A program made the translations under genes and the position numbers. Under the pieces are notes generated by a model. The model worked only from the letters and a program-made list of their open reading frames with translations, did no database searches and was not told where the DNA came from. Source: Pseudomonadales bacterium (lineage in GTDB: Bacteria > Pseudomonadota > Gammaproteobacteria > Pseudomonadales > JANQJO01). Taken from it: 64,000 nucleotides of DNA. Shown here piece by piece: positions 8,062 to 32,195 of the stretch. The DNA is taken from the NCBI GenBank assembly GCA_028281605.1, contig JANQJO010000079.1, positions 39,256 to 103,255 on the forward strand. Reading direction: 5' to 3'. The stretch's first letter is position 1, and each line of letters starts with the position of its first letter.

Positions 8062-8919
8062 ATGGCAGGTACAAGTGAAGTACAAGCGCTTCAGCAGCTC
8101 GGTATTATTAATATAGCTAATCGTGATCCTACTGACGAGAATAATGCTGATGCTTTTAAACTAGCAAAAATAAAAATTCTAACAAGAGTAATGCTTGAAC
8201 ATGCTAGATTTGTACGGAATTCAGAAGGGGCCCAAGCAGCTCGTCTATCAATCGGAGATTTAAAGATTCATTTCAAAGGTACAAATACTCTAGCTGAAGA
8301 ATGTTGTGATCGTGTAGAAAAAGAATTAGATAAAGAAGAAGAGATTCCTCTACTGATATATGATCGGTATGTAGATAGAATGAGGCGTGAAGATGGTTGG
8401 ATGCAGGTTAGAAGTGGTTTTTTAGTAGCCGTTTCATTTGGATTTTTTGTTGCTTACAATAATTTTATTGAAAGTAATGATATGAAAAAAGCTATTTCTT
8501 ACGCTGGTATGGCGACTGGTTTAGCATCAACTGTCTCACTTGCTTCTACAGCACATGCGTTACACTGCACACGACATAAAGCAGAAGTTGCAAGACAGGT
8601 TCTGCATAAATTTTTAGATTTAAAAAAACCGAGTATGTCCTTTACATTTTTCTCTCTACTTGCTGATACAAGGTCTTTTTTTGCTAGGCTTTTTTCAAAA
8701 GTCAGACATGTTATTTGTAGATCTGAAGATTCGAGTGTTATTGACAAAAAAGAAGAAATCAAATGGAACGATAACCTATCATTTCCTAGAGCCGGATCTC
8801 AACTGGCTAGACATTTAACAGGCTTATTTGGAACAATAGTATTAGCGTTAGCCCTTAATGTTATGTGGGTAGTTTTATTAGCAAAGCCTGGTATAATAAA
8901 TAGTGATACTGGTCTTTAG
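8062..8919 (+). CDS. Hypothetical membrane protein (central 2-TM hairpin plus C-terminal TM)
   Basis: AAGAGG Shine-Dalgarno. Hydrophobic segments VRSGFLVAVSFGFFVAY, ISYAGMATGLASTVSLAS and LFGTIVLALALNVMWVVLLA. No recognisable catalytic motif. Confidence 0.5.
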   Translation: MAGTSEVQALQQLGIINIANRDPTDENNADAFKLAKIKILTRVMLEHARFVRNSEGAQAARLSIGDLKIHFKGTNTLAEECCDRVEKELDKEEEIPLLIYDRYVDRMRREDGWMQVRSGFLVAVSFGFFVAYNNFIESNDMKKAISYAGMATGLASTVSLASTAHALHCTRHKAEVARQVLHKFLDLKKPSMSFTFFSLLADTRSFFARLFSKVRHVICRSEDSSVIDKKEEIKWNDNLSFPRAGSQLARHLTGLFGTIVLALALNVMWVVLLAKPGIINSDTGL

Positions 8920-9062
8920 CATTGTTTGGTGGATTAGTGCTGCAACCTGTAGTGATCCATAGGTTGAAGAAACACCGCTTGATAAAGTGATGATGACCAC
9001 CTCTTTGAGGTTACCGTTGCTATTGGATTTGAAATCAAAGTTATGTGTAGCTGATTGAGATA

Positions 9063-9962
9063 TTATTTAATATCCTTCCAATTAACCCCCCAAGGTGTGA
9101 CCAACCAGAACCATAAACGAGAGAAAAAATTGCGTTTTTTATTTGGAAATTCCAATGCGTCTAAATCCAAGGTTAATTCAAGCTCATTCGACTCTTCTTT
9201 ATCTGCTGTGGGTTCATTTTCTAAATCGTTATTGCTTCTGTTGTTTTGTCCAATCTCAACAATTTCTAGACTGTCAGAAAATTCTTCAATATCTTTGCCT
9301 GCGTCCAGATCACTTAGGACTTGCGTAAGCTGAGCGTTTAGATCTTCCATTTTTTCAAGCAAGGTATTGGGTAGGTCAGGATGATTGCGTATTTTATTGG
9401 TGTCAGCGATCAAGGTTTGTATTTCTTGGCGGATACGCCTACGACACTTGTTTTCCTTGCCCTTCATGTCATCGACATGTTGACTCAGTTTCTCTTGATC
9501 AATGGATAATCTTGAGCAATCTAGCATAACACCACGATCATGCAAAACGTAACGTACAGCCACATCTGTTTGGGCTTTGCGCCGAAAATTTTGTAGTTCT
9601 TTGACTAAGGCATCATAAGAGCTGGTAACTTTGCTCTCTGTGCCACTGATGTACAATTGAAAAAAATTTTCTTCACTGATTTGAGAGATTTTGACGATGC
9701 TTTCCATGTCATGTTTAACGGCATCGTCTAACTTACTCAGACTCGTTTTCAGTTGGGGGGTGCCGATATGAGCTAAGCGTTTGACTAATGCTCTCATCAA
9801 GGCAAAGTCTCTTTTTTTCGGTAATTGTGAGGGTTTAGCTATATGTTTAACGGCCTCTAGCCCTTTGGTCATTTGCTTAATTTGTTTAGTAAACGAGATG
9901 AGATTTTCTATCGCTTCACGTTTGCGATGTACGGATTTTAATTCTTCTGTGTAGCTGGTCAT
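9063..9962 (-). CDS. Hypothetical coiled-coil protein with acidic region and Trp-rich C-terminal tail
   Basis: 299 aa ORF, long and without internal stops. C-terminus is ...NFFSRLWFWLVTPWGVNWKDIK. No family recognised. Confidence 0.5.
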   Translation of the reverse strand: MTSYTEELKSVHRKREAIENLISFTKQIKQMTKGLEAVKHIAKPSQLPKKRDFALMRALVKRLAHIGTPQLKTSLSKLDDAVKHDMESIVKISQISEENFFQLYISGTESKVTSSYDALVKELQNFRRKAQTDVAVRYVLHDRGVMLDCSRLSIDQEKLSQHVDDMKGKENKCRRRIRQEIQTLIADTNKIRNHPDLPNTLLEKMEDLNAQLTQVLSDLDAGKDIEEFSDSLEIVEIGQNNRSNNDLENEPTADKEESNELELTLDLDALEFPNKKRNFFSRLWFWLVTPWGVNWKDIK

Positions 9963-10333: not shown

Positions 10334-10606
10334 TTATTCAAAGGATATTCTAAGGTGCGTCCCTGTTGCATGCGCAATTCGTTGTAAGGTTTTAATTGTG
10401 GTATTTTGCCCACCACTTTCAAGACGCGCCACCAAAGATTGTTTGGCTTCCATTTTATCCGCTAATTCTTCCTGTGTTAACCCTGCTTGATCCCGTGCGG
10501 CAATAATTGCAGAAGCCAATTCAAACTCATCACTCATGCCTTGATAGGCTTCTTGATATTCTGGATCATCCAGCCATTTTTTATGTAAGTCTTTTACTTT
10601 GCTCAT
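10334..10606 (-). CDS. XRE-family HTH antitoxin (HigA-like)
   Basis: 90 aa with HTH GLTQEELADKMEAKQSLVARLESG. ATGA overlap with the upstream toxin reading frame. Confidence 0.8.
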   Translation of the reverse strand: MSKVKDLHKKWLDDPEYQEAYQGMSDEFELASAIIAARDQAGLTQEELADKMEAKQSLVARLESGGQNTTIKTLQRIAHATGTHLRISFE

Positions 10607-10930
10607 TGGTCTATCTCCTGTGCTCGTTTCAAAGCCAACTCAATTTCACGGCGTGGGGTCTTTTGAGTTTTTTTAATAAAAACCCTGACGACCACAACAC
10701 GCTTGAGCTTTGCTGTCACATAGAGCGCTCTGGATATACCATCCCTGCCCTTCATGCGGATTTCCCACAAAGAACCTTCCAAGTGCTTGACGTAAGGTTC
10801 CCTCACATTTTGCAAACTATGTTCTTCAATTAAGCTGACTGATCCAGACAAAGCGTGCCCGCATATCAGCCGGAAGTTTTGCTAACTCCTGATCCACTGT
10901 TTCATTTAATGTTTCGACAATCCAGCCCAT
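10603..10930 (-). pseudogene. Gp49/HigB-like (DUF891-type) toxin gene interrupted by a 1-nt frameshift near 10830
   Basis: ATG 10930 gives MGWIVETLNETVDQELAKLPADMRARFVWISQLN*. The rest (..SLIEEHSLQNVREPYVKHLEGSLWEIRMKGRDGISRALYVT...FIKKTQKTPRREIELALKRAQEI) continues in another frame (ORF 10603-10851). Removing one A from CTTAATT restores ...ISQLIEEHSL.... Confidence 0.7.
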
Positions 10931-10955: not shown

Positions 10956-11415
10956 ATATGCAAGATTAAAATTCAAGCAATGTAACACAATTGACTATAG
11001 TGTTACATTTTTACAAACCCAAGCCCCTAAAATCAGGGGATTTTTGGTTTTATTCGCCTCTCAGCCAACTCCGGGAATTGCTGATCATCTGTTCATTTCC
11101 TTGTTCCAAACGCTAAATCAGTTTACGATATTTTCCCAATGAGATGCGACGGAACCAAGCATTCTGTATACTTATTGTTCTGAAGACATTGATTTAGGTA
11201 AACCGCGTTGTAAATAAGTCATAGATAAGCAATTTTAGATCCGGTAGTATAGTAGTATATTGGAAAGGGCTTTATATTACTTGGTCTCTAACTTGCCGAT
11301 AACTAAGACGTTGTTTGTAGTGTGACTTCCAGCATCAAAATAAAATATTGGAAACAATTATTCGATTCAAGCTTTACTCTTAGTTGCGTACTATTGAATT
11401 AAAAGGCTAATTCAG

Positions 11416-13047
11416 ATGAGTCATTTTTTTAATGCATTCAAACGATTTTCCTTCCTACAGGCTACGTTTGTAGGAAGCCTCCTGTATTCAATTCCCACCT
11501 ATTCTGACTCAATGAGTATAATAAGTGTCGAAGAAAGCTCACCCGGTGAGACTTCGATTATTCTTGAGTTAGACGGAAACAATGCACCTCATGCCGATAA
11601 CTTTTTATTGCAGTTTCCTGATGATAGAAATGTTATTGCAACTGATGTCGAGAAAGTATTACCTGCGGGTAATGATTCTTGGATTGTTATTTGTTTAGAT
11701 AAAAGCGGATCAATGGGTGCTTTATTTACTGAAGTGCAAAATGCTTTAAAAAATGCTGTTCAGATAACTCGTCCACGTCAAATGGTTGAGTTGTTAACCT
11801 TTGGTACGGTATCTTCCACACCGGTTCCTTTTACTGATAATGCATTTGAATTAACTCAAGTAATTTCTACGTTATCACTGGAAACTGCGAGAGGCGGTAG
11901 TACGGTGTTGTTTGAATCGATTGACACGGCACTGTCACATTTAGAAGAAAAGAATAACGGTACTTATTCCACTGGTAGAATCATTTTGATTTCAGATGGT
12001 AAGGATGAAGGGAGTTCAAACAACCTCGAAGCCGTCATTAATCGCGCTAGATCGATTGCCGTCGAAATTGATGTGGTTGGTTATGGCAATGACGCACAAG
12101 TTTCTTCATCGTTTGGAGTTTTAAGAGATTTACCGCGAGCGACAGGCGGTAGTCTGGTTCTGCCTTCTAATAAGCAAGATTTAGAAAATGAGCTAACAAG
12201 CTTGCTTGATGCGTCGGCACCTAATCCAGTTTGGCAAGTATCATTCGACTATGAGGTAGCCAATCATGGTCGAAAAGTAGGGGCGACCTTGATAAGAAAG
12301 GATAGTGCGAACCCTGAAGCGTTATCCTTGCCACGCAGTATTTCGACTATGGCATTGGTTGAAGAAGCCATTGCAGAAATCCCACCGTTTAATATTGCAA
12401 ATATTCCTAACGAAAATAATTCTCAGAGAGAAGATAGTAGCGATTCAGATAGTGACGAAACTAAATGGTCGTTTACCTTATTTAATATAACTTTTGATAT
12501 TCATCTTTGGGAAATAGTACTCGCTTTGTTGGGCATTGGTGCGACTATAACCATCGTATATCGAGAAAAAATTGTTAGATATTTTTGGCCAATTGTGGTT
12601 CTAAAACCAAAATCCGTTAACCCCAAACCGCAAAAACCAAAACCCGGGAAACGAACAAGTATCGGCTACGCATTTAGTGCCCCAAGCAAGGAAAAACCAA
12701 CGGCCTTATTAAAATACATCGATGAAAGAAAAGTTGAAAGCCAATATGCCATTAATCAGAACAATATATTAATTGGTAATGATGCAGATAACGATATTGT
12801 TCTAACAGCCGATGACTATGTCTCTTCTAAACATGCCTGCATTCGATTTGACTCAGGCAGTCTCTACTTAAACGACCTCAACTCCAGTAACGGTACCTAT
12901 TTAAATGGTGAACGTATATATAGCACGCCAAGAGTGCTTAGCCCAGACGATGAGATCCGAATTGGAAAAACTATTTTCCGATTGAAAACTTATCGACAGC
13001 AAGTAATGGCAGTTAAGCCTAAACAATACGAAGAACCCGTTGTTTAA
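11416..13047 (+). CDS. Membrane protein: signal peptide, extracytoplasmic vWA domain, TM helix, Pro/Lys-rich linker, cytoplasmic FHA domain
   Basis: MIDAS DxSxS in IVICLDKSGSM, plus GGSTVLFESI and ILISDGKDEGS. TM is IVLALLGIGATITIVY. Linker is KPKSVNPKPQKPKPGKR. FHA is ILIGNDADNDIVL...SSKHACIRFD...NDLNSSNGTYLNGERI...IRIGKTIFRL. Confidence 0.85.
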   Translation: MSHFFNAFKRFSFLQATFVGSLLYSIPTYSDSMSIISVEESSPGETSIILELDGNNAPHADNFLLQFPDDRNVIATDVEKVLPAGNDSWIVICLDKSGSMGALFTEVQNALKNAVQITRPRQMVELLTFGTVSSTPVPFTDNAFELTQVISTLSLETARGGSTVLFESIDTALSHLEEKNNGTYSTGRIILISDGKDEGSSNNLEAVINRARSIAVEIDVVGYGNDAQVSSSFGVLRDLPRATGGSLVLPSNKQDLENELTSLLDASAPNPVWQVSFDYEVANHGRKVGATLIRKDSANPEALSLPRSISTMALVEEAIAEIPPFNIANIPNENNSQREDSSDSDSDETKWSFTLFNITFDIHLWEIVLALLGIGATITIVYREKIVRYFWPIVVLKPKSVNPKPQKPKPGKRTSIGYAFSAPSKEKPTALLKYIDERKVESQYAINQNNILIGNDADNDIVLTADDYVSSKHACIRFDSGSLYLNDLNSSNGTYLNGERIYSTPRVLSPDDEIRIGKTIFRLKTYRQQVMAVKPKQYEEPVV

Positions 13048-13089
13048 TTCGCTGAATTCTTAAGTCGCACGGACAAGATTTATATTATT

Positions 13090-13953
13090 GTGAATGCTTA
13101 TTCTGAAATGAAAACGATATTTTCACGCAGCACTGATTCAAAGGGCAAAAGAAAACAATGGCACTTTGGCGCTTGTTCGGAAACCGGATTTTTTCGCAAA
13201 GAAAATCAAGACCGCATGGGTAGAGCTAGCTATCACGGTGGTGAGATCTATGTGGTTTCAGACGGAATGGGCGGACACAAAGGCGGCAGCATTGCAGCTG
13301 AAATGACGGTGCAAACCTTACTTGATGAATTGAGTCATCAAGAGGAGCCGACATCATTGTTCGATTTGCTTAAGCATGCGTTTCAATATGCAAATCAAGT
13401 AGTATATGAACGCGGGCATTCCAATGAGAGTGTAACAAAAGGTATGGGTGCCACTGCGGTTGTCATGCTTACCAAAGGCGCGAAAATATTAGTTGGTCAT
13501 GTGGGTGACAGCCGGGCTTATCTTTTTGATAACAATAAAAGGCTGCATTTACTAACGAAGGACCATACGCGCGTTCAGAGGATGGTAGATGATGGTTTGT
13601 TATCTGAGGCTGAAGCAGAAAACCATCCTGACGCAAGCATACTGGAGCGTGCTATAGGCCATTTGCCAACAGTGAAAAGTACGATTTCAAAGTGGCGACG
13701 TCTACGTTGTGGTGAGCAAATACTACTGTGTTCAGATGGGTTGTCTGGATACGTGAGTGATAAAGAAATAGCGAATGCGTTAAGTATCTGTACAGAGCCG
13801 TCTGAATCGGCAGAACTGCTCACGGCGTTAGCGCTTAAGAAAGGAGGCGAAGATAACGTGACTGTGCAAGTAATACGCTATGGCGACCAGCCTAAGATTG
13901 CCGTATTTAAAAAGTTAAGTGCGGTGTTAAGTATACGGCTGCTATCTCGGTGA
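13090..13953 (+). CDS. PP2C-family Ser/Thr protein phosphatase
   Basis: Motifs RKENQDR, VSDGMGGHKGG, GATAVVM, VGDSRAYLF, LCSDGL and GGEDNVTVQVI. The start could be GTG 13090 or ATG 13108. Confidence 0.9.
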   Translation: MNAYSEMKTIFSRSTDSKGKRKQWHFGACSETGFFRKENQDRMGRASYHGGEIYVVSDGMGGHKGGSIAAEMTVQTLLDELSHQEEPTSLFDLLKHAFQYANQVVYERGHSNESVTKGMGATAVVMLTKGAKILVGHVGDSRAYLFDNNKRLHLLTKDHTRVQRMVDDGLLSEAEAENHPDASILERAIGHLPTVKSTISKWRRLRCGEQILLCSDGLSGYVSDKEIANALSICTEPSESAELLTALALKKGGEDNVTVQVIRYGDQPKIAVFKKLSAVLSIRLLSR

Positions 13954-14104
13954 TTGTTTGTTTAGCAACGATTTACGCGGTGTTTAATCCAAATGATTTT
14001 AGTTGTTTTAAAGTCGACTTCTAAAATAGCAGAGTCCGTGGTTGATGCTAGAAATTCCAATGAATGAGTACATTTGCTTTTTACATTAACAAGAGGTGGT
14101 TTTC

Positions 14105-14854
14105 ATGGCTACGAATAATATTTGGGAGGTTATAAAACGATGGTCTCGCCTTGAGGGAGTTGGGGACGCGAGGCGCATAACTCAATCGAGTACTTTATGT
14201 AAAGCTGGAAAGCACTCTGTTGACCCCAACTGGGAGGAGTGCCCTTTATGTAAGCACGAAATATTAAACAAGGATAAGAATCAAACTGGCACTGAACTAA
14301 ATGACAACACAAGCGCAAACGAAATAAGGAGCAACGTTATGACATCTCGTAAACAAACATCTGTTGGCGGTGGAGAAAGCATTGCCTCAAACCGTCGTGA
14401 AACAAAATTGGACACTTATGCTGGTGATTTTCAACCAGCTCACGATCCTTCACGAAAGATTGTCGGTGTGATGGTTACGTTTTCTTGGCACAAAGAGGGG
14501 CAGTTGTTCCGTATTTATGAAGGTAAGAATTATATTGGTCGTGGCACGGTCGAGAACGAAGGTGGGCGCCTTTGCGATGTGTTAATTGAAGACGACCAGA
14601 CGCTATCGAATGAGCATGCTCTGATTATCTATCGAGCCGGGCGTTATGAGTTATTTGATCAAAGAAGTACGACAGGCACTTTCTTAAATGATGAATATGT
14701 TGATGACAAAGCAACACTGTCTGATCGAGCAAAAATTAAAACAGGTGCCACCGTGTGGCAATTTTTAAAAATTGATTCTGATGTCTTTGAGAGCAGTAAG
14801 CCTCAAGAGGATTCATCAGTTTCAAAGAAAAGAACCGATACGGTCGTAGGTTAA
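14105..14854 (+). CDS. FHA-domain protein with N-terminal zinc-ribbon-like motif
   Basis: CKAGKH...CPLCKHE near the N-terminus, then a low-complexity linker. C-terminal FHA is NYIGRG...LSNEHALIIY...LFDQRSTTGTFLNDEYV...IKTGATVWQF. ATG 14105 follows AGAGGTGG. Confidence 0.8.
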   Translation: MATNNIWEVIKRWSRLEGVGDARRITQSSTLCKAGKHSVDPNWEECPLCKHEILNKDKNQTGTELNDNTSANEIRSNVMTSRKQTSVGGGESIASNRRETKLDTYAGDFQPAHDPSRKIVGVMVTFSWHKEGQLFRIYEGKNYIGRGTVENEGGRLCDVLIEDDQTLSNEHALIIYRAGRYELFDQRSTTGTFLNDEYVDDKATLSDRAKIKTGATVWQFLKIDSDVFESSKPQEDSSVSKKRTDTVVG

Positions 14855-14887
14855 TTAACTTGAACGAATTGGGATACAATATTCGTC

Positions 14888-15835
14888 ATGAGCGCTTTAT
14901 CTAAACAAAGTATTGGCCCTTACCAAATTGTCGACGAACTGGGCGTCGGTGGAATGGCGATGGTTTGGCGGGCATGGGATCAACGCAATCAATGTGATGT
15001 TGCGATTAAGGCGATTAAAAACGAATATCGTAATGATTCCTGCTTTGTTAAGCGTTTTCTAGATGAGTCTCGACGGCAGGCGCGTCTCGAACATCCCAAC
15101 ATTGTTAAAGTGCTCGATACTCTGCAAGTAGGTCATTTGCAATGTATGGTGATGCAGCTAATTGAAGGTGAATCACTCGAGGAGCGTTTGGATCGCTTGC
15201 CTGAAAAGCGCATCAATTTTGAGGAAGCCCTGCCAATCTTTTGCGATATATTGGATGCGCTTGATTATGCTCACCGTAAAGGTGTTACGCACCGTGACAT
15301 TAAACCTTCGAATATACTTATAGAGCGCGAAACTGGGCGAGCATACTTGTCTGATTTTGGTATTTCTTTAGCGATTGGTGAATTACGTCATACACGTGCA
15401 CATGTGCCCGTTGGAACGCCGGAATATATGAGCCCAGAACAGATTCGAACGCCGCAGAGTATCGACTTTCGTTCAGATGTGTATAGCTTAGGTTGCGTAT
15501 TATATGAAGCGCTCATCGGGCGGCCTCCTTTTACTGCACCAGAGTTGGGCGGAAATGCTTGGGAAGTGGCCATTCGATCTGCTCATGTGAAAAATTCACC
15601 CGTACCGCCGCATCGTCTATCGCATTCCGTTACAAAGTCAGTCAGTAAAATTATTATGTGGGCTTTAGAAAAAGACCCGGATAAGCGTCTTCCAGGCTGT
15701 GCTGAATTTGCTAGACAGTTAAATGCCAGTCGTGAATCTGGTGCGTCTCCGTTTAATAAATTTAAGCGAATTTTATTCTTATTTACGTCTGTTGTTGTCG
15801 TCATTGTTGGCTTTGTTTTTCTAATGAGCCGTTGA
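14888..15835 (+). CDS. Ser/Thr protein kinase (RD type) with C-terminal TM anchor
   Basis: Motifs LGVGGMAMVW, VAIKAI, HRDIKPSNIL, DFG and GTPEYMSPE. C-terminal TM is ILFLFTSVVVVIVGFVFLM. Confidence 0.9.
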   Translation: MSALSKQSIGPYQIVDELGVGGMAMVWRAWDQRNQCDVAIKAIKNEYRNDSCFVKRFLDESRRQARLEHPNIVKVLDTLQVGHLQCMVMQLIEGESLEERLDRLPEKRINFEEALPIFCDILDALDYAHRKGVTHRDIKPSNILIERETGRAYLSDFGISLAIGELRHTRAHVPVGTPEYMSPEQIRTPQSIDFRSDVYSLGCVLYEALIGRPPFTAPELGGNAWEVAIRSAHVKNSPVPPHRLSHSVTKSVSKIIMWALEKDPDKRLPGCAEFARQLNASRESGASPFNKFKRILFLFTSVVVVIVGFVFLMSR

Positions 15836-15863
15836 ATAGTTTTAAACTCATCTAAGGGGAAAA

Positions 15864-16517
15864 ATGAAAATGAAAGAATTGATTAATCCATTCGTTAACT
15901 TAAAAGTAATGACCATTGTAGCCTCTGCAACGATATTGAGTGGTTGTGAAACCTTAGAGCAAAATGCGGCTTTAGAGTGTGGCGCGGGTGCATCTGTGGG
16001 GAGTTATTTTTTATGTAAGGCTAGCGGAAAGTCTGCGAAGGAATGCAATAAAATTGCCCTGGCAGGCGGGTTGGTTGGCGGAGCGGTATGTTACGGATAT
16101 GCCTCGAAACTCAATAAACACAAGAAGGTATTGGAAGGCAAAGAAGATGATTTGGATGCACGCCTTCAGTACGTGAAAAACGTGAATGAGGAATCTCGAA
16201 AACTGAATGAAAAATTAGAAATGCAAGTAGCGACTCTTTCACAAGAGATTGATAAGGAAATATTTAAGCAAGAGCAACAAAAAACAGAATCCGCTGAGTT
16301 GGATAACTTAAGAAACAAACTCAAAAATAACATTGAAAAAGCCAATGAGCAACTCGATGCCTCAAAGGCTGCGTTAGAAGATATGAGACAGTTTAAGGTT
16401 CGTCAAACAAAGCGATCAGAAGAATTAGATGCACAAATCGTGACGCAGCAGAAATTGTATAATGATACGCAAAAGCTGATTGCAAATTTAACACAGCAAA
16501 GTCAGCGCATTGGTTAA
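15864..16517 (+). CDS. Coiled-coil lipoprotein
   Basis: Lipobox ILSGC, a Gly-rich segment LAGGLVGGAVCYGY, then about 130 aa of heptad-like charged sequence. Confidence 0.7.
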   Translation: MKMKELINPFVNLKVMTIVASATILSGCETLEQNAALECGAGASVGSYFLCKASGKSAKECNKIALAGGLVGGAVCYGYASKLNKHKKVLEGKEDDLDARLQYVKNVNEESRKLNEKLEMQVATLSQEIDKEIFKQEQQKTESAELDNLRNKLKNNIEKANEQLDASKAALEDMRQFKVRQTKRSEELDAQIVTQQKLYNDTQKLIANLTQQSQRIG

Positions 16518-16531
16518 TGGGGTAGTAGCTA

Positions 16532-17035
16532 ATGGATAAATTACATAATGGCCATACTAAAACTGGATTGCCTTCTGTGATGCATATGGTGTTCGCAGTA
16601 TCGGTCAGTCTACTATTTTTAGCTTCTTTGTCAAGTTGTACGATTGCGACGATTAGAGATGATATTGAAACGACAGAAGCCTCTATTGTTGTAAAAGAAG
16701 GTGAGCTTGTTGAGGAAAATAAAATATATTCACAATTGCAAAGCCAAATTCAACAGACGCAATCAATTCTTGATGATAAGGAAGCTGATTTAACCGAAGT
16801 GGCTTTTCAGATTGAAATGATGAAAAAACAGTTTGCGAATGCACTTGCTCAGACCGAGGCTGAAAAAGAACGTAAATTGAAAATTGATACGGAATTAAGT
16901 GCATTACTGGATGAGCTAAAGGAAGTTAAGTCAATTGAACAGCAACAATCGTTGTCCATACAAGAAAAACAAAAACGTTTAAGCTATCTCAGGAAGAAGA
17001 CCATCAAATCATTGAAGATCATTGAAGCTATTTAA
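16532..17035 (+). CDS. Coiled-coil lipoprotein
   Basis: Lipobox LSSC after a hydrophobic h-region, with coiled-coil-like remainder. The stop abuts the next ATG. Confidence 0.7.
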   Translation: MDKLHNGHTKTGLPSVMHMVFAVSVSLLFLASLSSCTIATIRDDIETTEASIVVKEGELVEENKIYSQLQSQIQQTQSILDDKEADLTEVAFQIEMMKKQFANALAQTEAEKERKLKIDTELSALLDELKEVKSIEQQQSLSIQEKQKRLSYLRKKTIKSLKIIEAI

Positions 17036-18478
17036 ATGAGTGAAGACAGATTGCTTGGCTCAGTCCTTGAGAATAAATACCGTATACTCAGATTGCTCGG
17101 TGAAGGCGCTATGGGGCGTGTTTATCTCGCGGAAAATATTCAACTGCCTGATATTCGTTATGCGATTAAGGTTCTGAAATCAGAGTTCACCGACAGTAAC
17201 CCGCAATTTAAGGAGGAGTTTACCAGAGAAGCCCAGCGCCATGCTAAGTTACAGCATCCTAATATTGTTCATGTGAATGACTACTCCAAAACGTCTTCGA
17301 ATTTTTTCCTAGTACTCGCTTTCGTTGATGGTCAGGCTTTGAGTGATTTACTTGATGATGCACAAGGTCCGTTACCGGAAAAGCGGGCATTGTCGATCAT
17401 CAAAGATGTATTAAGCGCACTTAACTTTGCACATGAAAATGCCTTGGTACATCAAGACGTTAAATCGCCTAATATTCTGATTGATTCGTTTTGCGCACGC
17501 ATAACCGATTTTGGAATTGCTAGAGAACTTGCCAATGTTGCGGAGTCTGATTCTCAAAAATGGATTGGCACGCCTGATTACATGAGCCCGGAACAATACA
17601 TTAGCCCAAATATGATTGATCATCGCTCCGATGTTTATTCGGCAGGCGTGGTTTTGTTTGAAATGCTAACGGGCCAATTACCATTTTCTGGAGAAACATC
17701 GGAAGAAATTCTGCGTAAGCACGTTGATGAAGATGTTCCTGATCCCCGGCGAATAGAAAAAAAGATTTCTAAGCCTTTGGCGCGTATTGTTTTGAAAGCG
17801 CTGGCTAAAGATCCTGAGCAGCGCTATCAAGGTTGCCAAGAATTCTTATTGGCGATCGAAGCTTATGAACGTCGAAACACGCTGATAAAAACAATCATTT
17901 TTATTTCGATCTTAACGGCGATAGGGGCAATGACTTACGCATATCTAAAACCGCAAAAGGATGCAGGAGTCAATGTGGTTGTGAAAACGGCTTTTGATAA
18001 CATGGAAAGTGTTTGTCTTGATGTCAAACTCATGCACGGAAATTTCAGCGGAATAAAAGAAATTGAAGGTGTCAGAAAGGCTATCCAGGAACAGCGTCAA
18101 TCATTGGTCGATTATGTTGAAGTCACAAATCCAGCTGATGTTCCCGAGTGGTATCACCAGGAAATTCAAGATATGGAACAAGAAATAGAAGCTCAAAATA
18201 GCTATATAAAAAATATCCAGAAACAAATTCAAGACAACGAGCGTACGATAAAAAATCGACTTAGAAAATACTCAGAGGCGATTGCCAACTTGCAGAAATT
18301 TGATAGTGAAAGCGTTGAGGAAGTGGTGAAAATGGAGCGGGCTGGTAGTGCCAACCGTACATTATATGGCGACTATATACTTGGGGATCGAGTTAGCTTT
18401 AATCCTAGCGGTGAAATATTATCAATTGATGGTGCGATTGAACGTTGCAAAATACGCTTTCCAGAATTGAGTTTTTGA
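17036..18478 (+). CDS. Ser/Thr protein kinase (non-RD, HQD) with TM helix and extracytoplasmic coiled-coil domain
   Basis: Motifs LGEGAMGRVY, YAIKVL, HQDVKSPNIL, DFG and GTPDYMSPE. TM is IIFISILTAIGAMTYAYL, followed by about 180 aa of charged coiled-coil-like sequence. Confidence 0.9.
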   Translation: MSEDRLLGSVLENKYRILRLLGEGAMGRVYLAENIQLPDIRYAIKVLKSEFTDSNPQFKEEFTREAQRHAKLQHPNIVHVNDYSKTSSNFFLVLAFVDGQALSDLLDDAQGPLPEKRALSIIKDVLSALNFAHENALVHQDVKSPNILIDSFCARITDFGIARELANVAESDSQKWIGTPDYMSPEQYISPNMIDHRSDVYSAGVVLFEMLTGQLPFSGETSEEILRKHVDEDVPDPRRIEKKISKPLARIVLKALAKDPEQRYQGCQEFLLAIEAYERRNTLIKTIIFISILTAIGAMTYAYLKPQKDAGVNVVVKTAFDNMESVCLDVKLMHGNFSGIKEIEGVRKAIQEQRQSLVDYVEVTNPADVPEWYHQEIQDMEQEIEAQNSYIKNIQKQIQDNERTIKNRLRKYSEAIANLQKFDSESVEEVVKMERAGSANRTLYGDYILGDRVSFNPSGEILSIDGAIERCKIRFPELSF

Positions 18479-18690: not shown

Positions 18691-21186
18691 TCAATTGATT
18701 TTTGGATTGTTTGGCTTTATCAATTGTTTTAGAGCAGTTTGCCGTTGACGGCTGTCCTCTTGTCGAATAGCCATGGCAAGCGCTTTGCGTGTACCTACAA
18801 ATATCGCCAACTTTTTTGCGCGTGTTAAACCGGTATATACAAGATTGCGATGCAGCATTTTAAAATGTTGAGTTAATACGGGAATAATCACCGCTTTAAA
18901 TTCACTCCCTTGTGATTTATGAATCGTAATTGCATAAGCTAAATCAAGCTCCATAAGGTCTTCTTTTTTATAGCGTACAGTGCGTGAGTTGGGATAAAAG
19001 CTGACTTCACAGGTTAGGTTTTCAGTGTCAATAGCTGTGATTTTTCCTATATCACCATTGAAGACATTCAAGTCATAATTATTACGCCGATGTATGACTC
19101 GATCTCCTTCTCGAAAAATACGTTCCCCTATTTGTAATTGATACTTTCCAGATTTGGATGGGTTAGCTTTTTCTTGTAACACTTTATTGAGATTAGCTGT
19201 GCCTAAGGAACCCCGAGTCATTGGCGTTAGAATTTGAATTTCAGTTTCTGTGCCATGATACTTCGGAATCCAATCCAAGTATAGTTTCACAATGACATCT
19301 AGACATGTCAAGTTATAATGCAGTGATGACCAAGGGTGAATTTTTTTAATAACAGCTTTGAAAGAGGCTATTTTGTTATCAGTTTTATGTAATCGATCTA
19401 GTTGTACATGTTCAAATTGCTTGGGGATGGTGAACTCTTGTTCATAAGCTGATTGGATGGTTTCTTGAGTGCGAAACTCAAATGGTGTTTCTTCTGTTGT
19501 GTTCAGTTGTTCAAGTTCTGATGTTTTCCAGTCAAAAAAACGTTTGACTCTAGTAATAAAGCCCAATTGTGCTTGGGTGGCTTCATCGGAATCAATAAAG
19601 AGACAGTCAGTTTTATTTTCCCAACTTTGGGGTTTTTTAAAAGGTGAGGTGATGGCTGGTAGTTGGCCTTGATTGATTTGATGAGCAAAGCGAATGATTG
19701 AAGACTGTTGTGCCTGTCGAAACACTTGAGTCAGATGAAAGCACGGTATTATATTCGAAGAAATGATATCCCGTAATACATTTCCTGCACCGATGGAAGG
19801 CAGTTGGTCGGCATCTCCTATAAAGAGTACCTGACAGCCTCCAGGAGTCGCTTTTAATAGGGCTGCAGACAGACTGATGTCGAGCATGGAGCATTCATCG
19901 ATAATTAAAAAATCAGCTTTGAGCGGAGTTTCTTCGTTTTTTTGGAAGGCCCCCATTTTCCATTCTAATAATCTGTGCAAGGTTTTTGCTTCTCGTCTGA
20001 TGACTTCACTCATTTTTTGAGTGGCACGTCCTGTGGGTGCAGCCAGTAAAACTTGTCTGCCCATGGATTCTAAAAGGCGAACAATCACGCGTGTGGTCGT
20101 TGTTTTGCCGCAGCCAGGCCCACCTGTCAGAATGGAAAATGGATGCTGTACGATTTCTGTTGCGGCGTGAGCTTGTTCTTCACTTAAGTGAATGCCTGTT
20201 GTGTGACAATAACGTTCAATCCATCGGGTAACTCGTTCGTGATCAACTGACACCATTGTACTTTGCATTTCGTTTAAGCGTTCTGCTACTGTAGATTCGT
20301 CGTAAAAGAGCGTTTTAGAATAGTAGGCAGTAATGTGTGTATGCTTTTCTTTGATGAGTGAACGGGTGCGTAGTTGGTTGTTCTGTTGTAGAGTCTCAAG
20401 GTGCTTATTCAGGACATCGCTTAAATCCAACTCGATCAGTTGTTTGGTGCCTTCTTGGATTTGTATCTGAGTTAAATAACAATGTCCTTGCTCACGGCTG
20501 GCTGATAATACTTGTTTAATAGCTGCCATAATTCGCTGATCACTGTCTTTGGCCAGTCCTAAACTGAGAGCGACTTTGTCTGCTGAGAAAAAACCTATAC
20601 CATAAATGTCATTGGCTAATTGATAAGGATCAGTGATGACTGTTTGAATAGCATTGTCGCCATATTCTTTATAAATACGTACAGCGAATAGAGAGCTGAT
20701 CCCGTGACTTTGTAGGAACATCATAACTTCTCGAATTGAGCGATGTTCACACCAGGCTGTCTCGATCATTTCTAATTTTTTTTGGGCGATGCCGGGTACT
20801 TCTGTGAGTCTTTCTATGTGGTGCTCAAAGACATCTAGGGTGTCTTTTTTAAAGTAGCCGACAATTTTTTTAGCCGTTTTAGGTCCAACGCCTTTGATTA
20901 AGCCAGAACCCAGATACTTTTCTAAGGAAGCTGCTGTTGCTGGTTTTTTTTCTAGTGCGTTGTTGGCTTGGAATTGGCGTCCGTACTTTTGATTGATGGT
21001 CCAGGTACCACTGAATTGCATGGTTGCCCCAGCAAATACTTGAGTTTGATGGACTGTCACTGTTTCTTGTTGTCCAGGCCTGTCCAGTGGCTGTACGCGT
21101 AGTACTGACCAACCGTTATCAGGGTTATGATAAGTGACTCGATTGACGATTCCAGTTAAGGTCTCTGCAATATCGCTCATTGCCAA
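18691..21186 (-). CDS. recD2: RecD2-like SF1B ATP-dependent DNA helicase
   Basis: Walker A GGPGCGKTT, Walker B LIIDECSMLD, GDADQLPSIGAGNVL, AITIHKSQGSEF, and an N-terminal HhH-like GVGPKTAKKI. Confidence 0.85.
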   Translation of the reverse strand: MAMSDIAETLTGIVNRVTYHNPDNGWSVLRVQPLDRPGQQETVTVHQTQVFAGATMQFSGTWTINQKYGRQFQANNALEKKPATAASLEKYLGSGLIKGVGPKTAKKIVGYFKKDTLDVFEHHIERLTEVPGIAQKKLEMIETAWCEHRSIREVMMFLQSHGISSLFAVRIYKEYGDNAIQTVITDPYQLANDIYGIGFFSADKVALSLGLAKDSDQRIMAAIKQVLSASREQGHCYLTQIQIQEGTKQLIELDLSDVLNKHLETLQQNNQLRTRSLIKEKHTHITAYYSKTLFYDESTVAERLNEMQSTMVSVDHERVTRWIERYCHTTGIHLSEEQAHAATEIVQHPFSILTGGPGCGKTTTTRVIVRLLESMGRQVLLAAPTGRATQKMSEVIRREAKTLHRLLEWKMGAFQKNEETPLKADFLIIDECSMLDISLSAALLKATPGGCQVLFIGDADQLPSIGAGNVLRDIISSNIIPCFHLTQVFRQAQQSSIIRFAHQINQGQLPAITSPFKKPQSWENKTDCLFIDSDEATQAQLGFITRVKRFFDWKTSELEQLNTTEETPFEFRTQETIQSAYEQEFTIPKQFEHVQLDRLHKTDNKIASFKAVIKKIHPWSSLHYNLTCLDVIVKLYLDWIPKYHGTETEIQILTPMTRGSLGTANLNKVLQEKANPSKSGKYQLQIGERIFREGDRVIHRRNNYDLNVFNGDIGKITAIDTENLTCEVSFYPNSRTVRYKKEDLMELDLAYAITIHKSQGSEFKAVIIPVLTQHFKMLHRNLVYTGLTRAKKLAIFVGTRKALAMAIRQEDSRQRQTALKQLIKPNNPKIN

Positions 21187-21623
21187 ATAAAATGCTCGAC
21201 AAAAGAAGAGCCGTCGTCAAATTGAAAAGTGAAGGGCACGGTTTTTTGGTCGAACCATTGTTGGTCAAAATTAAATACCATGATGTGATAACCCCCTGGT
21301 TTGAAAGTGACCTTGCTATGGCTGGGTATGAGGATAGAGTCTATGTGTTGCATAATGCTTAATCCATTTTTTTTTTCTATAGTATGTATTTCTATTTTTG
21401 CTGCTATTGGTGATGATATGTTGACTAAAATGCGATTTTTGTTTGACGTGTTTTTTATTTGAAAATAGGCGGCTGTGTGTGTGCTGATGGTTGGAACTTT
21501 CCGTATCCAAGCGTTGGTTATAGCAAGTTGTGTTTTATTATTCTGAGCCATGGCATGAGGTAGGCTCATATGCAATTGTATGAGTAACAATAAGGTTAAA
21601 TGGTATTGTATTAAACGTTTCAC
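21177..21623 (-). CDS. Copper chaperone PCu(A)C (DUF461 family)
   Basis: Signal peptide, YFQIKN, IEIHT...MQHI and FKPGGYHIMVFN motifs. Overlaps the upstream SCO gene by 4 nt. Confidence 0.75.
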   Translation of the reverse strand: MKRLIQYHLTLLLLIQLHMSLPHAMAQNNKTQLAITNAWIRKVPTISTHTAAYFQIKNTSNKNRILVNISSPIAAKIEIHTIEKKNGLSIMQHIDSILIPSHSKVTFKPGGYHIMVFNFDQQWFDQKTVPFTFQFDDGSSFVEHFIWQ

Positions 21624-22246
21624 TCTGCTAGTGCCATTTCAGCCAGTTTTTTCCACCAAGGCTGGCCTTTTAATAAGCTTCTTACATCGGCCACAATTTC
21701 GTCTATATTATGATCGCTCGCATAGAGTTTGCGAATGCGGTTTTTTTGGTCGAGTAAGTAAATATAATCACTGTGTGCGTACAGAACATCAGATTCAACG
21801 CTTGTTTGTTGTTTGGCAAAGATGGCTCCATATTGTTTAGCGACGGTTTTGAGCTCTGCTTTGGTACCAGTAAAACCGATGATATTTGAGTTAAAATGAG
21901 CAAGATACTGTTGTAGCTTATGGATGGTGTCGCGTTCATGGTCAAAGGATATGAATAATACTTGTACTTGATCGCTGTCTTCTTTTAGGCGTTTTAATGT
22001 TTGACTTAAACGGCTTAACACCATTGGGCATATATCTGGACAGGTAGTATAACCAAAATTCAATAATAGTACTTTGCCTTCATATTCATTGAGTGCGACT
22101 GGGCGATTTAGAGTACCGGGCAATTTAAAATGACCACCTAGTCGTGTGTTAATGGGCAGTTCCTTAGCGTGTATTGTATTGGTAAAAAGTGTTAGCGTGA
22201 TGATAATTAAGCTAAAGAGAAGGCTGGCAATCTGTTTTATGCGCAT
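21620..22246 (-). CDS. SCO1/SenC family copper-binding protein
   Basis: CPDICP motif in a thioredoxin-like fold context, with an N-terminal membrane anchor. Confidence 0.85.
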   Translation of the reverse strand: MRIKQIASLLFSLIIITLTLFTNTIHAKELPINTRLGGHFKLPGTLNRPVALNEYEGKVLLLNFGYTTCPDICPMVLSRLSQTLKRLKEDSDQVQVLFISFDHERDTIHKLQQYLAHFNSNIIGFTGTKAELKTVAKQYGAIFAKQQTSVESDVLYAHSDYIYLLDQKNRIRKLYASDHNIDEIVADVRSLLKGQPWWKKLAEMALAE

Positions 22247-24583: not shown

Positions 24584-26739
<2,156 letters not shown>

Positions 26740-26768
26740 CTGTTGTGTAGCATGATGGGACCTCTGTT

Positions 26769-27653
26769 ATGAAGCTTGGTCTTGGTACTGTACAATTTGG
26801 ATTAGACTATGGTATTAGTAATAATCGAGGTAAAGTTCCATTTGAAAAAGCTTTGTCTTTACTTAAAACGGCTTATCATGATGGCGTGACAGTGTTGGAT
26901 ACGGCCTATCATTACGGTTCTGCTGAGGCTGTGTTGGGCCACTTAGATTGGCAGAAATATCCTTTTAAGATTATATCTAAAACAGCTAAAATTGAGGCCC
27001 CAATAGTTTCTGCACCAGCAATAGCTAAGGTTCGAACACAATTTTTATCTTCGTTAAAAAAATTAAAGCAAACTACTGTTTACGGATTACTGGTGCATCA
27101 TTTTCCTGATTTATGTCAGGTGGGCTCTGAAAAATTATGGCATATGCTGGAAACTTTAAAGTCTGAACAGATTGTGAAAAAAATAGGGGTATCAGTTTAT
27201 GATCCACAGGATGTTTGGTATGTGTTGGAGCATTTTGCTCCTGATTTGATTCAGCTGCCTTTTAATGTATTGGATCAAAGGGCAGATACGAGCGGTGTGT
27301 TTGCAGCATTGTGTTCGAGAGGCATTGAGTGCCATGTGCGCAGCGTATATTTGCAAGGATTGTTGCTGATGCCAGCTGATAAAATTTTTAATGTTTTGCC
27401 TAGAGCTTTAATGGCTGTCAAGCGTTTTCAAGCTTTATGCCAGGATTATAAAATCAGTCCGATGGGAATGGCTTTGCATTTTGTTGATCAATACGAAGAA
27501 ATTGCGCATATGATTGTAGGTGTTACCTGTTTACAAGAATTGAGACAAGCTATGAATGCGCTTGCTGATTCAAGGAGTACGACGGTGTTAGAAGAATTAA
27601 AACAGTTAGCCGTATATGATAATCATGTCATTAACCCGTCATTATGGCCTTAA
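26769..27653 (+). CDS. Aldo/keto reductase family oxidoreductase
   Basis: MKLGLGTVQFGLDYG... and LDTAYHYGSAE motifs. 294 aa. Confidence 0.75.
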   Translation: MKLGLGTVQFGLDYGISNNRGKVPFEKALSLLKTAYHDGVTVLDTAYHYGSAEAVLGHLDWQKYPFKIISKTAKIEAPIVSAPAIAKVRTQFLSSLKKLKQTTVYGLLVHHFPDLCQVGSEKLWHMLETLKSEQIVKKIGVSVYDPQDVWYVLEHFAPDLIQLPFNVLDQRADTSGVFAALCSRGIECHVRSVYLQGLLLMPADKIFNVLPRALMAVKRFQALCQDYKISPMGMALHFVDQYEEIAHMIVGVTCLQELRQAMNALADSRSTTVLEELKQLAVYDNHVINPSLWP

Positions 27654-27670
27654 AGAGAGCGTGATGAGTC

Positions 27671-28729: not shown

Positions 28730-28739
28730 GGTGTGTTAT

Positions 28740-32193: not shown

Positions 32194-32195
32194 CG

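What the first reader, a model, noticed from the sequence alone, without database searches (positions are those of the whole stretch)
11416..18478. Seven-gene trans-envelope Ser/Thr phospho-signalling operon (vWA-TM-FHA, PP2C, ZnR-FHA, two kinases, two lipoproteins) with no recognisable output machinery
Seen in the sequence: seven co-directional ORFs with gaps of 42, 151, 33, 28, 14 and 0 nt. Every canonical motif is intact: MIDAS DxSxS, PP2C metal motifs, two FHA cores, two full Hanks kinase motif sets, and two lipoboxes. Established knowledge: the same domain vocabulary (a kinase with a periplasmic vWA domain, PP2C, FHA, lipoproteins) makes up the PpkA/PppA/Fha1/TagQR threonine-phosphorylation pathway that triggers the P. 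aeruginosa H1-T6SS. A vWA(TerY)+PP2C+STK triad ('TerY-P') was defined by comparative genomics, and as far as I recall it was later reported as an anti-phage system; that needs verifying. Inference: here the parts are wired differently. The vWA domain is fused to FHA rather than to a kinase, there are two kinases, and there are two coiled-coil lipoproteins. No T6SS, pilus or other effector machinery lies within 64 kb. The operon sits in an accessory segment beside an inactivated TA locus. It may be a stand-alone envelope- or phage-sensing system whose output is unknown.
Basis: partly seen in the sequence, partly recalled or inferred. Interest (0 to 1): 0.85.

Follow-up and report, generated by a model that had tools for sequence, protein, structure and literature searches.

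The report
Orphan copy of injection-system signalling cassette
The seven genes are real and form a membrane-spanning protein-phosphorylation signalling cassette; in other bacteria this cassette almost always sits next to a phage-tail-like injection machine, which suggests an undescribed control pathway for those machines, but this copy has no machine nearby.

Summary
The seven co-directional ORFs at 11416-18478 are real and carry the stated domains: signal peptide-vWA-TM-FHA, PP2C, Zn-ribbon-FHA, tail-anchored kinase, two lipoproteins, and kinase-TM-periplasmic domain. Two motif claims need correcting. The vWA-TM-FHA protein's FHA lacks the canonical phosphate-binding Arg, and kinase 2 has HQD instead of HRD.

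The cassette is not a one-off. The same gene order recurs in Paraburkholderia, Caballeronia, Nitrosovibrio/Nitrosospira-type and other proteobacterial contigs. In 11 independent loci it lies head-to-head with an Afp/PVC-type contractile injection system (CIS; Pvc16 cap, two sheaths, gp19-like tubes, spike). Eight more loci carry a CIS-associated gene (PAAR-like DUF4280, eCIS_core, Afp15-like ATPase). Most relatives also add an S41 protease.

The window has none of these in 64 kb. Its cassette is nested phylogenetically among CIS-linked ones.

Best reading: it is an unlinked or orphan member of an undescribed CIS-associated threonine-phosphorylation cassette, functionally analogous to the T6SS PpkA/PppA/Fha1 pathway. 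It is not TerY-P and matches no known defence system. The eCIS surveys I could search mention no such regulators.

The parts
11416..13047 (+). W1: signal peptide, periplasmic beta-sandwich + vWA (MIDAS intact), TM helix (~358-390), cytoplasmic FHA (430-525) lacking the canonical GR arginine
   Evidence: Foldseek top hit is ArnB of the ArnAB complex (8s05_A, E 4.7e-12). Best sequence hits for the FHA end are ArnA and GarA.
13090..13953 (+). W2: PP2C Ser/Thr phosphatase, catalytic domain only. Many relatives add a TM helix and a periplasmic coiled-coil/Pro-Ala-rich tail; some CIS-linked relatives are equally short.
   Evidence: (Stp1-type, 217 bits, below the 230 cutoff).
14105..14854 (+). W3: soluble Zn-ribbon (C-x2-G-x-H...W...CPxC), Ser/Thr-rich linker with an invariant Thr (T100, RRETKLD = pT-x-x-D type), then FHA. 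Likely phospho-acceptor/adaptor. An alternative GTG start lies at 14096.
14888..15835 (+). W4: Hanks-type Ser/Thr kinase 1 (K41, HRD, DFG, SPE) with a C-terminal TM tail anchor
15864..16517 (+). W5: lipoprotein (LSGC) with a Cys-rich glycine-zipper segment, the conserved L-x-G-x-E-[ND]-D-L-D-A-R motif and a helical bundle. It is the marker protein of the cassette family.
   Evidence: >=126 clusters at 90% identity; AF2 pLDDT 79; no significant fold match; 419 clusters at 50% identity with E<=1e-10.
16532..17035 (+). W6: lipoprotein (LSSC) with a coiled coil
17036..18478 (+). W7: Ser/Thr kinase 2 (non-RD: HQD), TM helix (~281-305), periplasmic helical domain with two family-conserved Cys
10334..10851 (-). 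Upstream neighbour, not part of the cassette: HigA-like HTH antitoxin (10334-10606) and an N-terminally truncated Gp49/HigB-like toxin ORF (10603-10851)
11024..11039 (.). Bidirectional terminator-like hairpin between the TA locus and the cassette

Best explanation
The seven genes are one operon encoding a trans-envelope Ser/Thr phospho-signalling cassette. It belongs to a conserved, so far unnamed family that is normally encoded head-to-head with an Afp/PVC-type contractile injection system (CIS). In relatives the operon usually also encodes an S41 protease and a PAAR-like spike tip (DUF4280). The window holds a stripped-down, unlinked ('orphan') copy.

Proposed mechanism (inferred): the periplasmic vWA/MIDAS domain of W1, the two lipoproteins W5 and W6, and the periplasmic domain of kinase 2 form an envelope sensor. 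A cue at the envelope, such as contact, damage or stress, activates kinase 2 and/or the tail-anchored kinase 1. The kinases phosphorylate the invariant linker threonine of the soluble ZnR-FHA protein W3 (T100, a pT-x-x-D motif) and possibly the juxtamembrane linker of W1. FHA-phosphothreonine interactions then assemble or release an adaptor complex, and the PP2C resets it.

In relatives the output is most likely assembly, firing or release of the adjacent CIS, by analogy with PpkA/PppA/Fha1 in T6SS. In this genome the output is either a CIS encoded outside the 64 kb or a different, unknown target.

Shown: gene content, topology signals, conserved synteny, CIS linkage in relatives, and absence of a CIS in the window. 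Inferred: everything about signal, substrate and output.
For: Domains and topology.

Conserved W1..W7 gene order was found in more than 15 loci from Paraburkholderia, Caballeronia, Burkholderiaceae, Nitrosovibrio/Nitrosospira-type and metagenomic contigs.

CIS structural genes (Pvc16_N, two Phage_sheath_1, T4_gp19 tubes, CIS_tube, Phage_GPD) lie divergently adjacent in 11 loci: L004, L007, L012, L014, L017, L018, L022, L072, L075, the JGI 3300048101 contig and L076.

CIS-associated genes occur in further loci. These are Pvc16+DUF4280 (L024), DUF4280 plus a WHD-AAA Afp15-like ATPase (L020), eCIS_core (L026, L074), and DUF4280 alone (L009/L025, L015, L021, P0094 contig).

NJ trees of four families place window+L001 among CIS-linked clades. 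An invariant Thr in a pTxxD context lies in the W3 linker. No CIS, S41 or DUF4280 is present in the window (plus Pfam). The T6SS precedent for STK/PP2C/FHA control of a contractile machine is PMC13584744.
Against: The window has no CIS within 11 kb upstream or 45 kb downstream, and the rest of the genome could not be inspected. Some relatives (L013 Variovorax, L019, L023, and L073, which has a partial cassette) also show no CIS gene within 10 kb, so the cassette may work independently. Co-location does not show regulation; the proteins could instead be structural anchors. The FHA of W1 lacks the canonical phosphate-binding Arg, and the Arg is not conserved in the W3 family, so classical pThr reading is not assured. 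The NJ trees have no support values. No experimental data exist for any member.
Confidence: 0.6

Rival explanations
1. Stand-alone envelope-stress or phage-sensing system. The cassette is autonomous, its output is a cytoplasmic target unrelated to any injection machine, and the CIS linkage elsewhere is secondary recruitment.
For: No CIS lies in the 64 kb. All seven ORFs are intact. A few relatives lack CIS genes within 10 kb: L013, L019, L023, L073. The window/L001 lineage lacks the S41 and DUF4280 genes that tie relatives to the CIS.
Against: The window clade is nested among CIS-linked clades. The majority of informative loci are CIS-linked. No effector-like domain (nuclease, TIR, pore and so on) is present in the cassette. 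PADLOC gives only generic kinase/PP2C hits.
Confidence: 0.2
2. Structural membrane adaptor or anchor rather than a regulator. The envelope proteins (W1, W5, W6, W7, the PP2C tail) tether the CIS baseplate to the envelope, as CisA does for the Streptomyces CIS or TssJLM for T6SS, with phosphorylation only fine-tuning.
For: Five or six of the proteins are envelope-located. The operon co-encodes a PAAR-like spike tip in relatives. A membrane protein is required for firing of a non-T6SS CIS (PMC12237407).
Against: Two active-looking kinases and a phosphatase are hallmarks of signalling. The cassette persists intact without a nearby CIS in the window. There is no similarity to TssJ/L/M or CisA; none was detected in the Pfam or NCBIfam scans, and CisA itself was not compared directly.
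Confidence: 0.12
3. TerY-P-like or another anti-phage defence system built from vWA + PP2C + STK.
For: Shared domain vocabulary. The kinases score highly against PADLOC PD-T4-6 and MADS6 kinase models, and the PP2C hits PDC-M21C weakly. A TA locus lies next door.
Against: TerY-P is defined as a TerY-like vWA, a PP2C and an STK fused C-terminally to a Zn-ribbon or OB fold, all cytoplasmic (PMC11090510). Here the vWA is exported and fused to FHA, the kinases end in TM segments, and the Zn-ribbon is on an FHA protein. W1, W3, W5 and W6 have no meaningful PADLOC hit. The kinase hits reflect the generic Hanks domain. Relatives sit beside a CIS rather than in defence islands; the exception is L020, which has TIR-STAND and CHAT genes upstream.
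Confidence: 0.04
4. Cell-envelope growth or division regulator analogous to the actinobacterial FhaA-FhaB-PstP-RodA-PbpA-PknA-PknB cluster.
For: The same count of parts: two FHA proteins (one TM-anchored), a PP2C that is TM-anchored in relatives, and two STKs. The best NCBIfam hit for W1's C-terminal half is FhaB/FipA, and the kinases hit PknB.
Against: All scores are below the curated cutoffs (78 vs 125; 274-295 vs 450). There are no PASTA domains and no RodA or PbpA. The distribution is sporadic and CIS-linked rather than core-genome.
Confidence: 0.04

Closest known systems
T6SS threonine phosphorylation pathway (TagE/PpkA, TagG/PppA, TagH/Fha1, TagQRST) of the P. aeruginosa H1-T6SS
   Same: A Hanks kinase, a PP2C and an FHA protein sit next to a contractile injection machine. 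A periplasmic vWA sensor domain and lipoprotein(s) lie upstream. Control is post-translational (PMC13584744).
   Different: The vWA is fused to FHA rather than to the kinase. There are two kinases and two FHA domains, and no TagR or TagST. The lipoproteins show no recognised family. TagH (TIGR03354) scores 43 and 18 bits against a 120 cutoff. The associated machine in relatives is Afp/PVC-type (Pvc16, Phage_sheath_1, gp19 tubes), not a TssA-M T6SS. In the window no machine is nearby.
ArnA/ArnB (Zn-finger FHA protein + vWA protein) phospho-regulated complex of Sulfolobus acidocaldarius
   Same: W1's exported part is structurally closest to ArnB (Foldseek 8s05_A, E 4.7e-12). W1's FHA is closest in sequence to ArnA and GarA. 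W3 has ArnA's Zn-ribbon + FHA layout. The partners are Hanks kinases and a phosphatase (PMC7472852).
   Different: ArnA and ArnB are separate cytoplasmic proteins that repress archaellum genes. Here vWA and FHA are in one polypeptide on opposite sides of the membrane, and the context is a bacterial CIS.
TerY-P triad (TerY-like vWA + PP2C + STK-ZnR/OB)
   Same: The vWA + PP2C + STK vocabulary, and a Zn-ribbon somewhere in the system.
   Different: The architecture and topology differ in every component. There are no PADLOC TerY-P hits, and FHA domains and lipoproteins are absent from TerY-P.
Known eCIS regulators and accessories (GerE/LuxR, BTAD, RfaH-like, histidine kinases; CisA in Streptomyces)
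   Same: They are encoded next to Afp/PVC-type CIS loci and are proposed to control expression or firing (PMC8213781; PMC12237407).
   Different: Those are transcription factors or a single membrane protein. Neither eCIS census searched (PMC8213781, PMC6899500) nor a metagenome survey (PMC12210884) mentions FHA, PP2C or Ser/Thr kinases.
Deinococcus radiodurans DRA0331-DRA0334 operon (vWA, STPK, FHA, PP2C)
   Same: The operon combines vWA, STK, FHA and PP2C (bioRxiv 10.64898/2026.01.23.701218).
   Different: It is a cytoplasmic, four-gene, DNA-damage-linked operon with no lipoproteins, no second kinase and no CIS context. No sequence comparison was made.

Membership tests
T6SS threonine phosphorylation pathway (PpkA/PppA/Fha1/TagQRST) | Kinase with a periplasmic vWA domain (PpkA/TagE architecture) | tested here: not met
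   The vWA is on W1 with FHA. The kinases carry a TM tail (W4) or a TM plus a helical periplasmic domain (W7).
T6SS threonine phosphorylation pathway (PpkA/PppA/Fha1/TagQRST) | TagH/Fha1-type FHA protein | tested here: not met
   TIGR03354 scores 43.2 bits (W1) and 18 bits (W3) against a cutoff of 120.25.
T6SS threonine phosphorylation pathway (PpkA/PppA/Fha1/TagQRST) | Encoded within a TssA-M T6SS cluster | tested here: not met
   No T6SS genes in the window. Relatives flank Afp/PVC-type CIS genes instead.
T6SS threonine phosphorylation pathway (PpkA/PppA/Fha1/TagQRST) | PP2C phosphatase antagonist | tested here: met
   PP2C_2 7e-19; all metal motifs present.
TerY-P triad | Cytoplasmic TerY-like vWA protein | tested here: not met
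   W1 has a signal peptide, and a TM separates vWA from FHA. It has no PADLOC hit.
TerY-P triad | STK fused C-terminally to a Zn-ribbon (or OB fold) | tested here: not met
   Both kinases end in TM or periplasmic segments. The Zn-ribbon is N-terminal on the FHA protein W3. Definition taken from PMC11090510.
   All seven have orthologues in the same order in L001, L004, L007, L012, L014, L017, L022, L020, L025, L072 and L076.
   None in the 64 kb by phmmer, jackhmmer or Pfam. The rest of the genome was not available.
   Absent in the window. S41 is also absent in the closest relative, L001.
ArnA/ArnB-type FHA-vWA pair | Zn-ribbon FHA protein plus vWA/beta-sandwich protein | tested here: met
   The Zn-ribbon + FHA of W3 is conserved. 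The W1 model's top Foldseek hit is ArnB, 8s05_A. This is a structural resemblance only.
ArnA/ArnB-type FHA-vWA pair | Cytoplasmic heterodimer controlling archaellum transcription | not testable with these tools
   This is a bacterial system and the vWA is predicted to be periplasmic.
Actinobacterial FhaA/FhaB-PstP-PknA/PknB cluster | Equivalog-level match to FhaB/FipA and PASTA kinase PknB; RodA and PbpA in the operon | tested here: not met
   FhaB_Rv0019c scores 78 against 125. PknB_PASTA scores 274 and 295 against 450. There are no PASTA, RodA or PbpA genes.
PD-T4-6 / MADS6 defence kinases (PADLOC) | Match specific to the defence kinase beyond the generic Hanks domain, in a matching system context | tested here: inconclusive
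   Scores are high (up to 274 bits) but cover only the kinase domain, and both kinases hit dozens of models alike. The context differs.

The most novel reading that the evidence does not exclude
The cassette family is a previously unrecognised threonine-phosphorylation pathway with its own trans-envelope sensor, and it gates assembly, firing or release of Afp/PVC-type ('extracellular') contractile injection systems in diderm bacteria. That would mean these machines are triggered post-translationally at the envelope, much like T6SS. The window's CIS-less copy would show that the sensor module can be re-used for another, unknown output.
Probability: 0.4. Interest if true: 0.8.

Novelty: new variant of a known kind. 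Interest (0 to 1): 0.62.

Why it matters
How Afp/PVC-type contractile injection systems are switched on, positioned or released is largely unknown. The census papers I could search list only transcription factors and occasional histidine kinases. A conserved kinase/phosphatase/FHA cassette with periplasmic sensor parts lies head-to-head with such systems in cultivable Paraburkholderia, Caballeronia and Nitrosovibrio. That gives a directly testable post-translational control pathway and a parallel to T6SS regulation. It would also matter for engineering eCIS as delivery tools. For this window specifically, it turns an apparently unique 'system without output' into an orphan member of a recognisable family. 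It also poses a sharp question: what does the cassette control when no injection system is next to it?

Tried and rejected
- PADLOC and NCBIfam gave no system-level assignment. Only generic kinase and PP2C hits appeared, all below curated cutoffs.
- TerY-P was rejected on architecture.
- The viral-contig scan found one irrelevant vWA hit.
- The metagenome-contig scan failed with a tool error and still consumed the cap, so association statistics rest on about 25 loci rather than a census.
- The window's own genome is not in the genome collection, and the 115.5-kb NCBI contig was not retrievable; only a 9-kb Logan contig came back. A CIS elsewhere in the genome could therefore not be checked.
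- Taxonomy could be narrowed only to a poorly sampled gammaproteobacterium: the best non-self SpoT hit is 63% identical.
- Promoter/terminator and sigma-54 scans were uninformative.
- I first read the short PP2C (no TM or tail) as decay. I dropped that because CIS-linked Nitrosospira-type loci have equally short PP2Cs.
- The AF2 model of W5 gave a confident helical bundle but no significant PDB fold match.
- The periplasmic domain of W7 has no meaningful PDB sequence match.

Full report
**Observation**

The third gap is 142 nt from a GTG start or 151 nt from the ATG at 14105. I call the proteins W1 to W7.

- Pfam finds VWA plus FHA in W1, PP2C in W2, FHA in W3, and Pkinase in W4 and W7. W5 and W6 match no family.
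- W1 has a signal-peptide-like N-terminus that is conserved in relatives, a single strong TM segment at about residues 358-390, and a C-terminal FHA domain. An AlphaFold2 model (mean pLDDT 69.5) shows a beta-sandwich plus vWA, a disordered linker, the TM helix and the FHA domain.
- W4 ends in a TM tail anchor. W7 has a TM segment and a ~175-aa periplasmic helical domain with two family-conserved cysteines.
- W5 and W6 have lipoboxes (LSGC, LSSC) followed by coiled coils.
- The MIDAS residues, the PP2C metal motifs and the kinase catalytic residues are present.

Two details of 'every canonical motif is intact' are not accurate. In alignments with GarA and ArnA, the FHA of W1 has Asn where the phosphate-binding Arg of the G-R motif should be, and relatives have Ser or Ala there. 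Kinase 2 is a non-RD kinase with HQD, while relatives have HRD or HCD.

**Surroundings**

Nearly every ORF of 120 aa or more in the 64 kb was scanned with Pfam.

- Upstream lie RNase PH, YicC, Gmk, SpoT, RidA, two unknown proteins and a HigA-like/HigB-like pair. The toxin ORF of that pair lacks its N-terminal part.
- Downstream lie RecD2, PCuAC, SCO1, Ogt, a nonulosonic-acid-type sugar cluster, Fic, PGI, an NtrC-type two-component system and other housekeeping genes.
- There are no T6SS, pilus, CIS or toxin genes. There are also no tRNAs and no Rfam hits.
- GC content across the cassette (0.39-0.43) matches its flanks.
- The best non-self SpoT hit is only 63% identical, and the named hits are Gammaproteobacteria. 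The host is therefore a poorly sampled gammaproteobacterium.

**Relatives**

W1 is rare in a word-indexed search of 5.8 billion proteins: one hit is the window's own protein and five are full-length relatives. The contigs of those relatives were decisive.

In L004/L005 and L007/L008 the gene order is W1, PP2C, ZnR-FHA, STK1, W5, W6, an S41 protease with a PDZ domain, STK2 and DUF4280 (PAAR-like). This block lies divergently next to Pvc16_N, two Phage_sheath_1 genes, two T4_gp19 tube genes, a CIS_tube gene and a Phage_GPD spike gene. That set is an Afp/PVC-type contractile injection system.

A scan of species-representative genomes, followed by phmmer mapping, found the same arrangement in five more genomes: Paraburkholderia sp. 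GAS42, Caballeronia humi, P. ribeironis, Burkholderia sp. H160 and Caballeronia calidae.

I then used the W5 lipoprotein as a specific marker. It has at least 126 clusters at 90% identity, all annotated as hypothetical, and 419 representatives at 50% identity with E<=1e-10 among 1.84 billion proteins. Four further CIS-adjacent loci turned up this way: a Nitrosovibrio tenuis-like contig (L072), L075, a JGI 3300048101 contig and L076.

The tally across informative loci is as follows.

| Linkage | Loci |
|---|---|
| CIS structural genes directly adjacent (11 loci) | L004, L007, L012, L014, L017, L018, L022, L072, L075, JGI 3300048101 contig, L076 |
| CIS-associated gene within 10 kb (8 loci) | L024 (Pvc16 + DUF4280); L020 (DUF4280 + WHD-AAA, Afp15-like ATPase); L026 and L074 (eCIS_core); L009/L025, L015, L021 and the P0094 contig (DUF4280) |
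| No CIS link found | L013 Variovorax, L019, L023, L073 (a W5-W6-STK2 remnant) |
| Contig too short to judge | L001-L003 (closest relative, 40% identity), L016, L029 |

Iterative profile searches with every CIS component, S41 and DUF4280 found nothing in the window.

Neighbour-joining trees of four families (W1, W3, W5, W7) place the window+L001 clade among CIS-linked clades. In the W3 and W7 trees it is sister to the CIS-adjacent Paraburkholderia/Caballeronia group. These trees have no support values.

**What it is**

The cassette is a member of a conserved, unnamed family of trans-envelope Ser/Thr signalling operons that are characteristically coupled to Afp/PVC-type CIS. The window's copy and its nearest relative lack the S41 protease. 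The window also lacks DUF4280 and any CIS within 11 kb upstream or 45 kb downstream. All seven ORFs are intact. The short PP2C, which lacks the TM and periplasmic tail seen in many relatives, is not a sign of decay, because CIS-linked Nitrosospira-type loci have equally short PP2Cs.

**Mechanism (inferred)**

- The exported vWA/MIDAS domain of W1, the two lipoproteins and the periplasmic domain of STK2 are the plausible sensor.
- The two kinases and the PP2C set the phosphorylation state of cytoplasmic partners.
- The only soluble non-enzymatic protein, W3, is the likely phospho-acceptor or adaptor. It has a conserved Zn-ribbon and a Ser/Thr-rich linker. That linker contains a threonine invariant in all 13 aligned orthologues, in an R-x-T-x-x-D context in most of them (window T100, RRETKLD). 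pT-x-x-D is a classical FHA ligand type (established knowledge), and the layout resembles the GarA/OdhI intramolecular switch.
- In relatives, the shared divergent promoter region and the PAAR-like gene in the same gene string argue that the output is the CIS. By analogy with PpkA/PppA/Fha1 (PMC13584744), that output would be assembly, firing or release.
- The non-canonical FHA residues are a caveat for classical pThr recognition.

**Comparison with known systems**

- *T6SS threonine-phosphorylation pathway:* the closest in how it would work, but no defining architectural feature other than the PP2C is met. The vWA is not on the kinase, the TagH model scores far below cutoff, there is no T6SS, and there is no TagRST.
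- *ArnA/ArnB:* the closest in structure. W1's exported part best matches ArnB (Foldseek 8s05_A, E 4.7e-12), and its FHA best matches ArnA and GarA. W3 shares ArnA's Zn-ribbon-FHA layout. ArnA/ArnB form a cytoplasmic archaeal pair (PMC7472852).
- *TerY-P (definition in PMC11090510):* not met in any component beyond domain names, and PADLOC offers no TerY-P hit.
- *Actinobacterial FhaA/FhaB-PstP-PknA/PknB cluster:* it shares the parts count but not the equivalog scores or the cell-wall genes.

**Novelty**

Full-text searches found no paper linking eCIS or CIS loci with FHA, PP2C or Ser/Thr kinases. The two eCIS censuses and a metagenome survey mention none. They describe GerE, BTAD, RfaH-like regulators and occasional histidine kinases. 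A membrane accessory protein, CisA, is known for the Streptomyces CIS. The held library is incomplete, so prior description elsewhere cannot be excluded.

I rate this as a new variant of a known kind: Ser/Thr phosphorylation control of contractile injection machines, with a different architecture and a different class of machine.

**Verdict**

Interest is moderate to high because of the family-level implication rather than this particular copy.

Noticed in passing
window 10334-10851 (-): HigA-like HTH antitoxin plus a Gp49/HigB-like toxin ORF. The toxin ORF starts at TTG, lacks about 17 N-terminal profile positions and has an in-frame stop just upstream, so the toxin is probably inactivated.
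   Followed up: partly
window 31639-33629 (+): A thioredoxin-like protein is followed by a 477-aa protein with both domains of copper type II ascorbate-dependent monooxygenase (PHM/DBH-like). This family is unusual in bacteria. PCuAC and SCO1 copper chaperones lie at 21177-22246.
   Followed up: no
window 24596-29648 (+): A nonulosonic-acid-type (pseudaminic/legionaminic-like) sugar cluster: Polysacc_synt_2 dehydratase, DegT aminotransferase, aldo-keto reductase, NeuB synthase and a methyltransferase. A 496-aa protein with no Pfam hit precedes it at 22960-24450.
   Followed up: no
window 8062-9962: Two proteins with no Pfam family (285 aa on +, 299 aa coiled-coil-like on -) lie between RidA and the TA locus, directly upstream of the cassette region.
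   Followed up: no
window 30080-31213 (-): A Fic/DOC protein with an N-terminal DUF4172 domain.
   Followed up: no
L072 13933-14845; L075 13775-14716; L076 13849-14824; JGI 3300048101 and 3300071325 contigs: In Nitrosospira/Nitrosovibrio-type loci, STK2 is followed by DUF5675 plus an unknown ~170-190-aa protein. On the two JGI contigs, a DUF4280 gene and a sigma-54 activator follow those genes. This may be a transcriptional arm of the same system.
   Followed up: no
L073 9439-12532: A partial cassette (unknown 179 aa, W5, W6, STK2 only) sits beside HipA fragments on a 1.48-Mb contig with no CIS within 10 kb. It shows that degenerate or minimal versions exist.
   Followed up: partly
L020 1-9239: Upstream of a complete cassette lie a TIR-nSTAND1-WD40 protein, a CHAT protease and a PG_binding_1 protein, which are conflict-system genes. 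L013 (Variovorax) has an AHH nuclease toxin and a Trypsin_2+TPR-S protein upstream.
   Followed up: no
L004 13021-13164; L001 3586-3687: A small ORF of 33-47 aa is called between the PP2C and ZnR-FHA genes in some relatives. The corresponding 142-151-nt gap in the window (13954-14104) has no counterpart.
   Followed up: partly
tool behaviour: The metagenome-contig scan returned 'unexpected contig name' and still counted against the cap, so no metagenome-wide locus set was obtained.
   Followed up: yes
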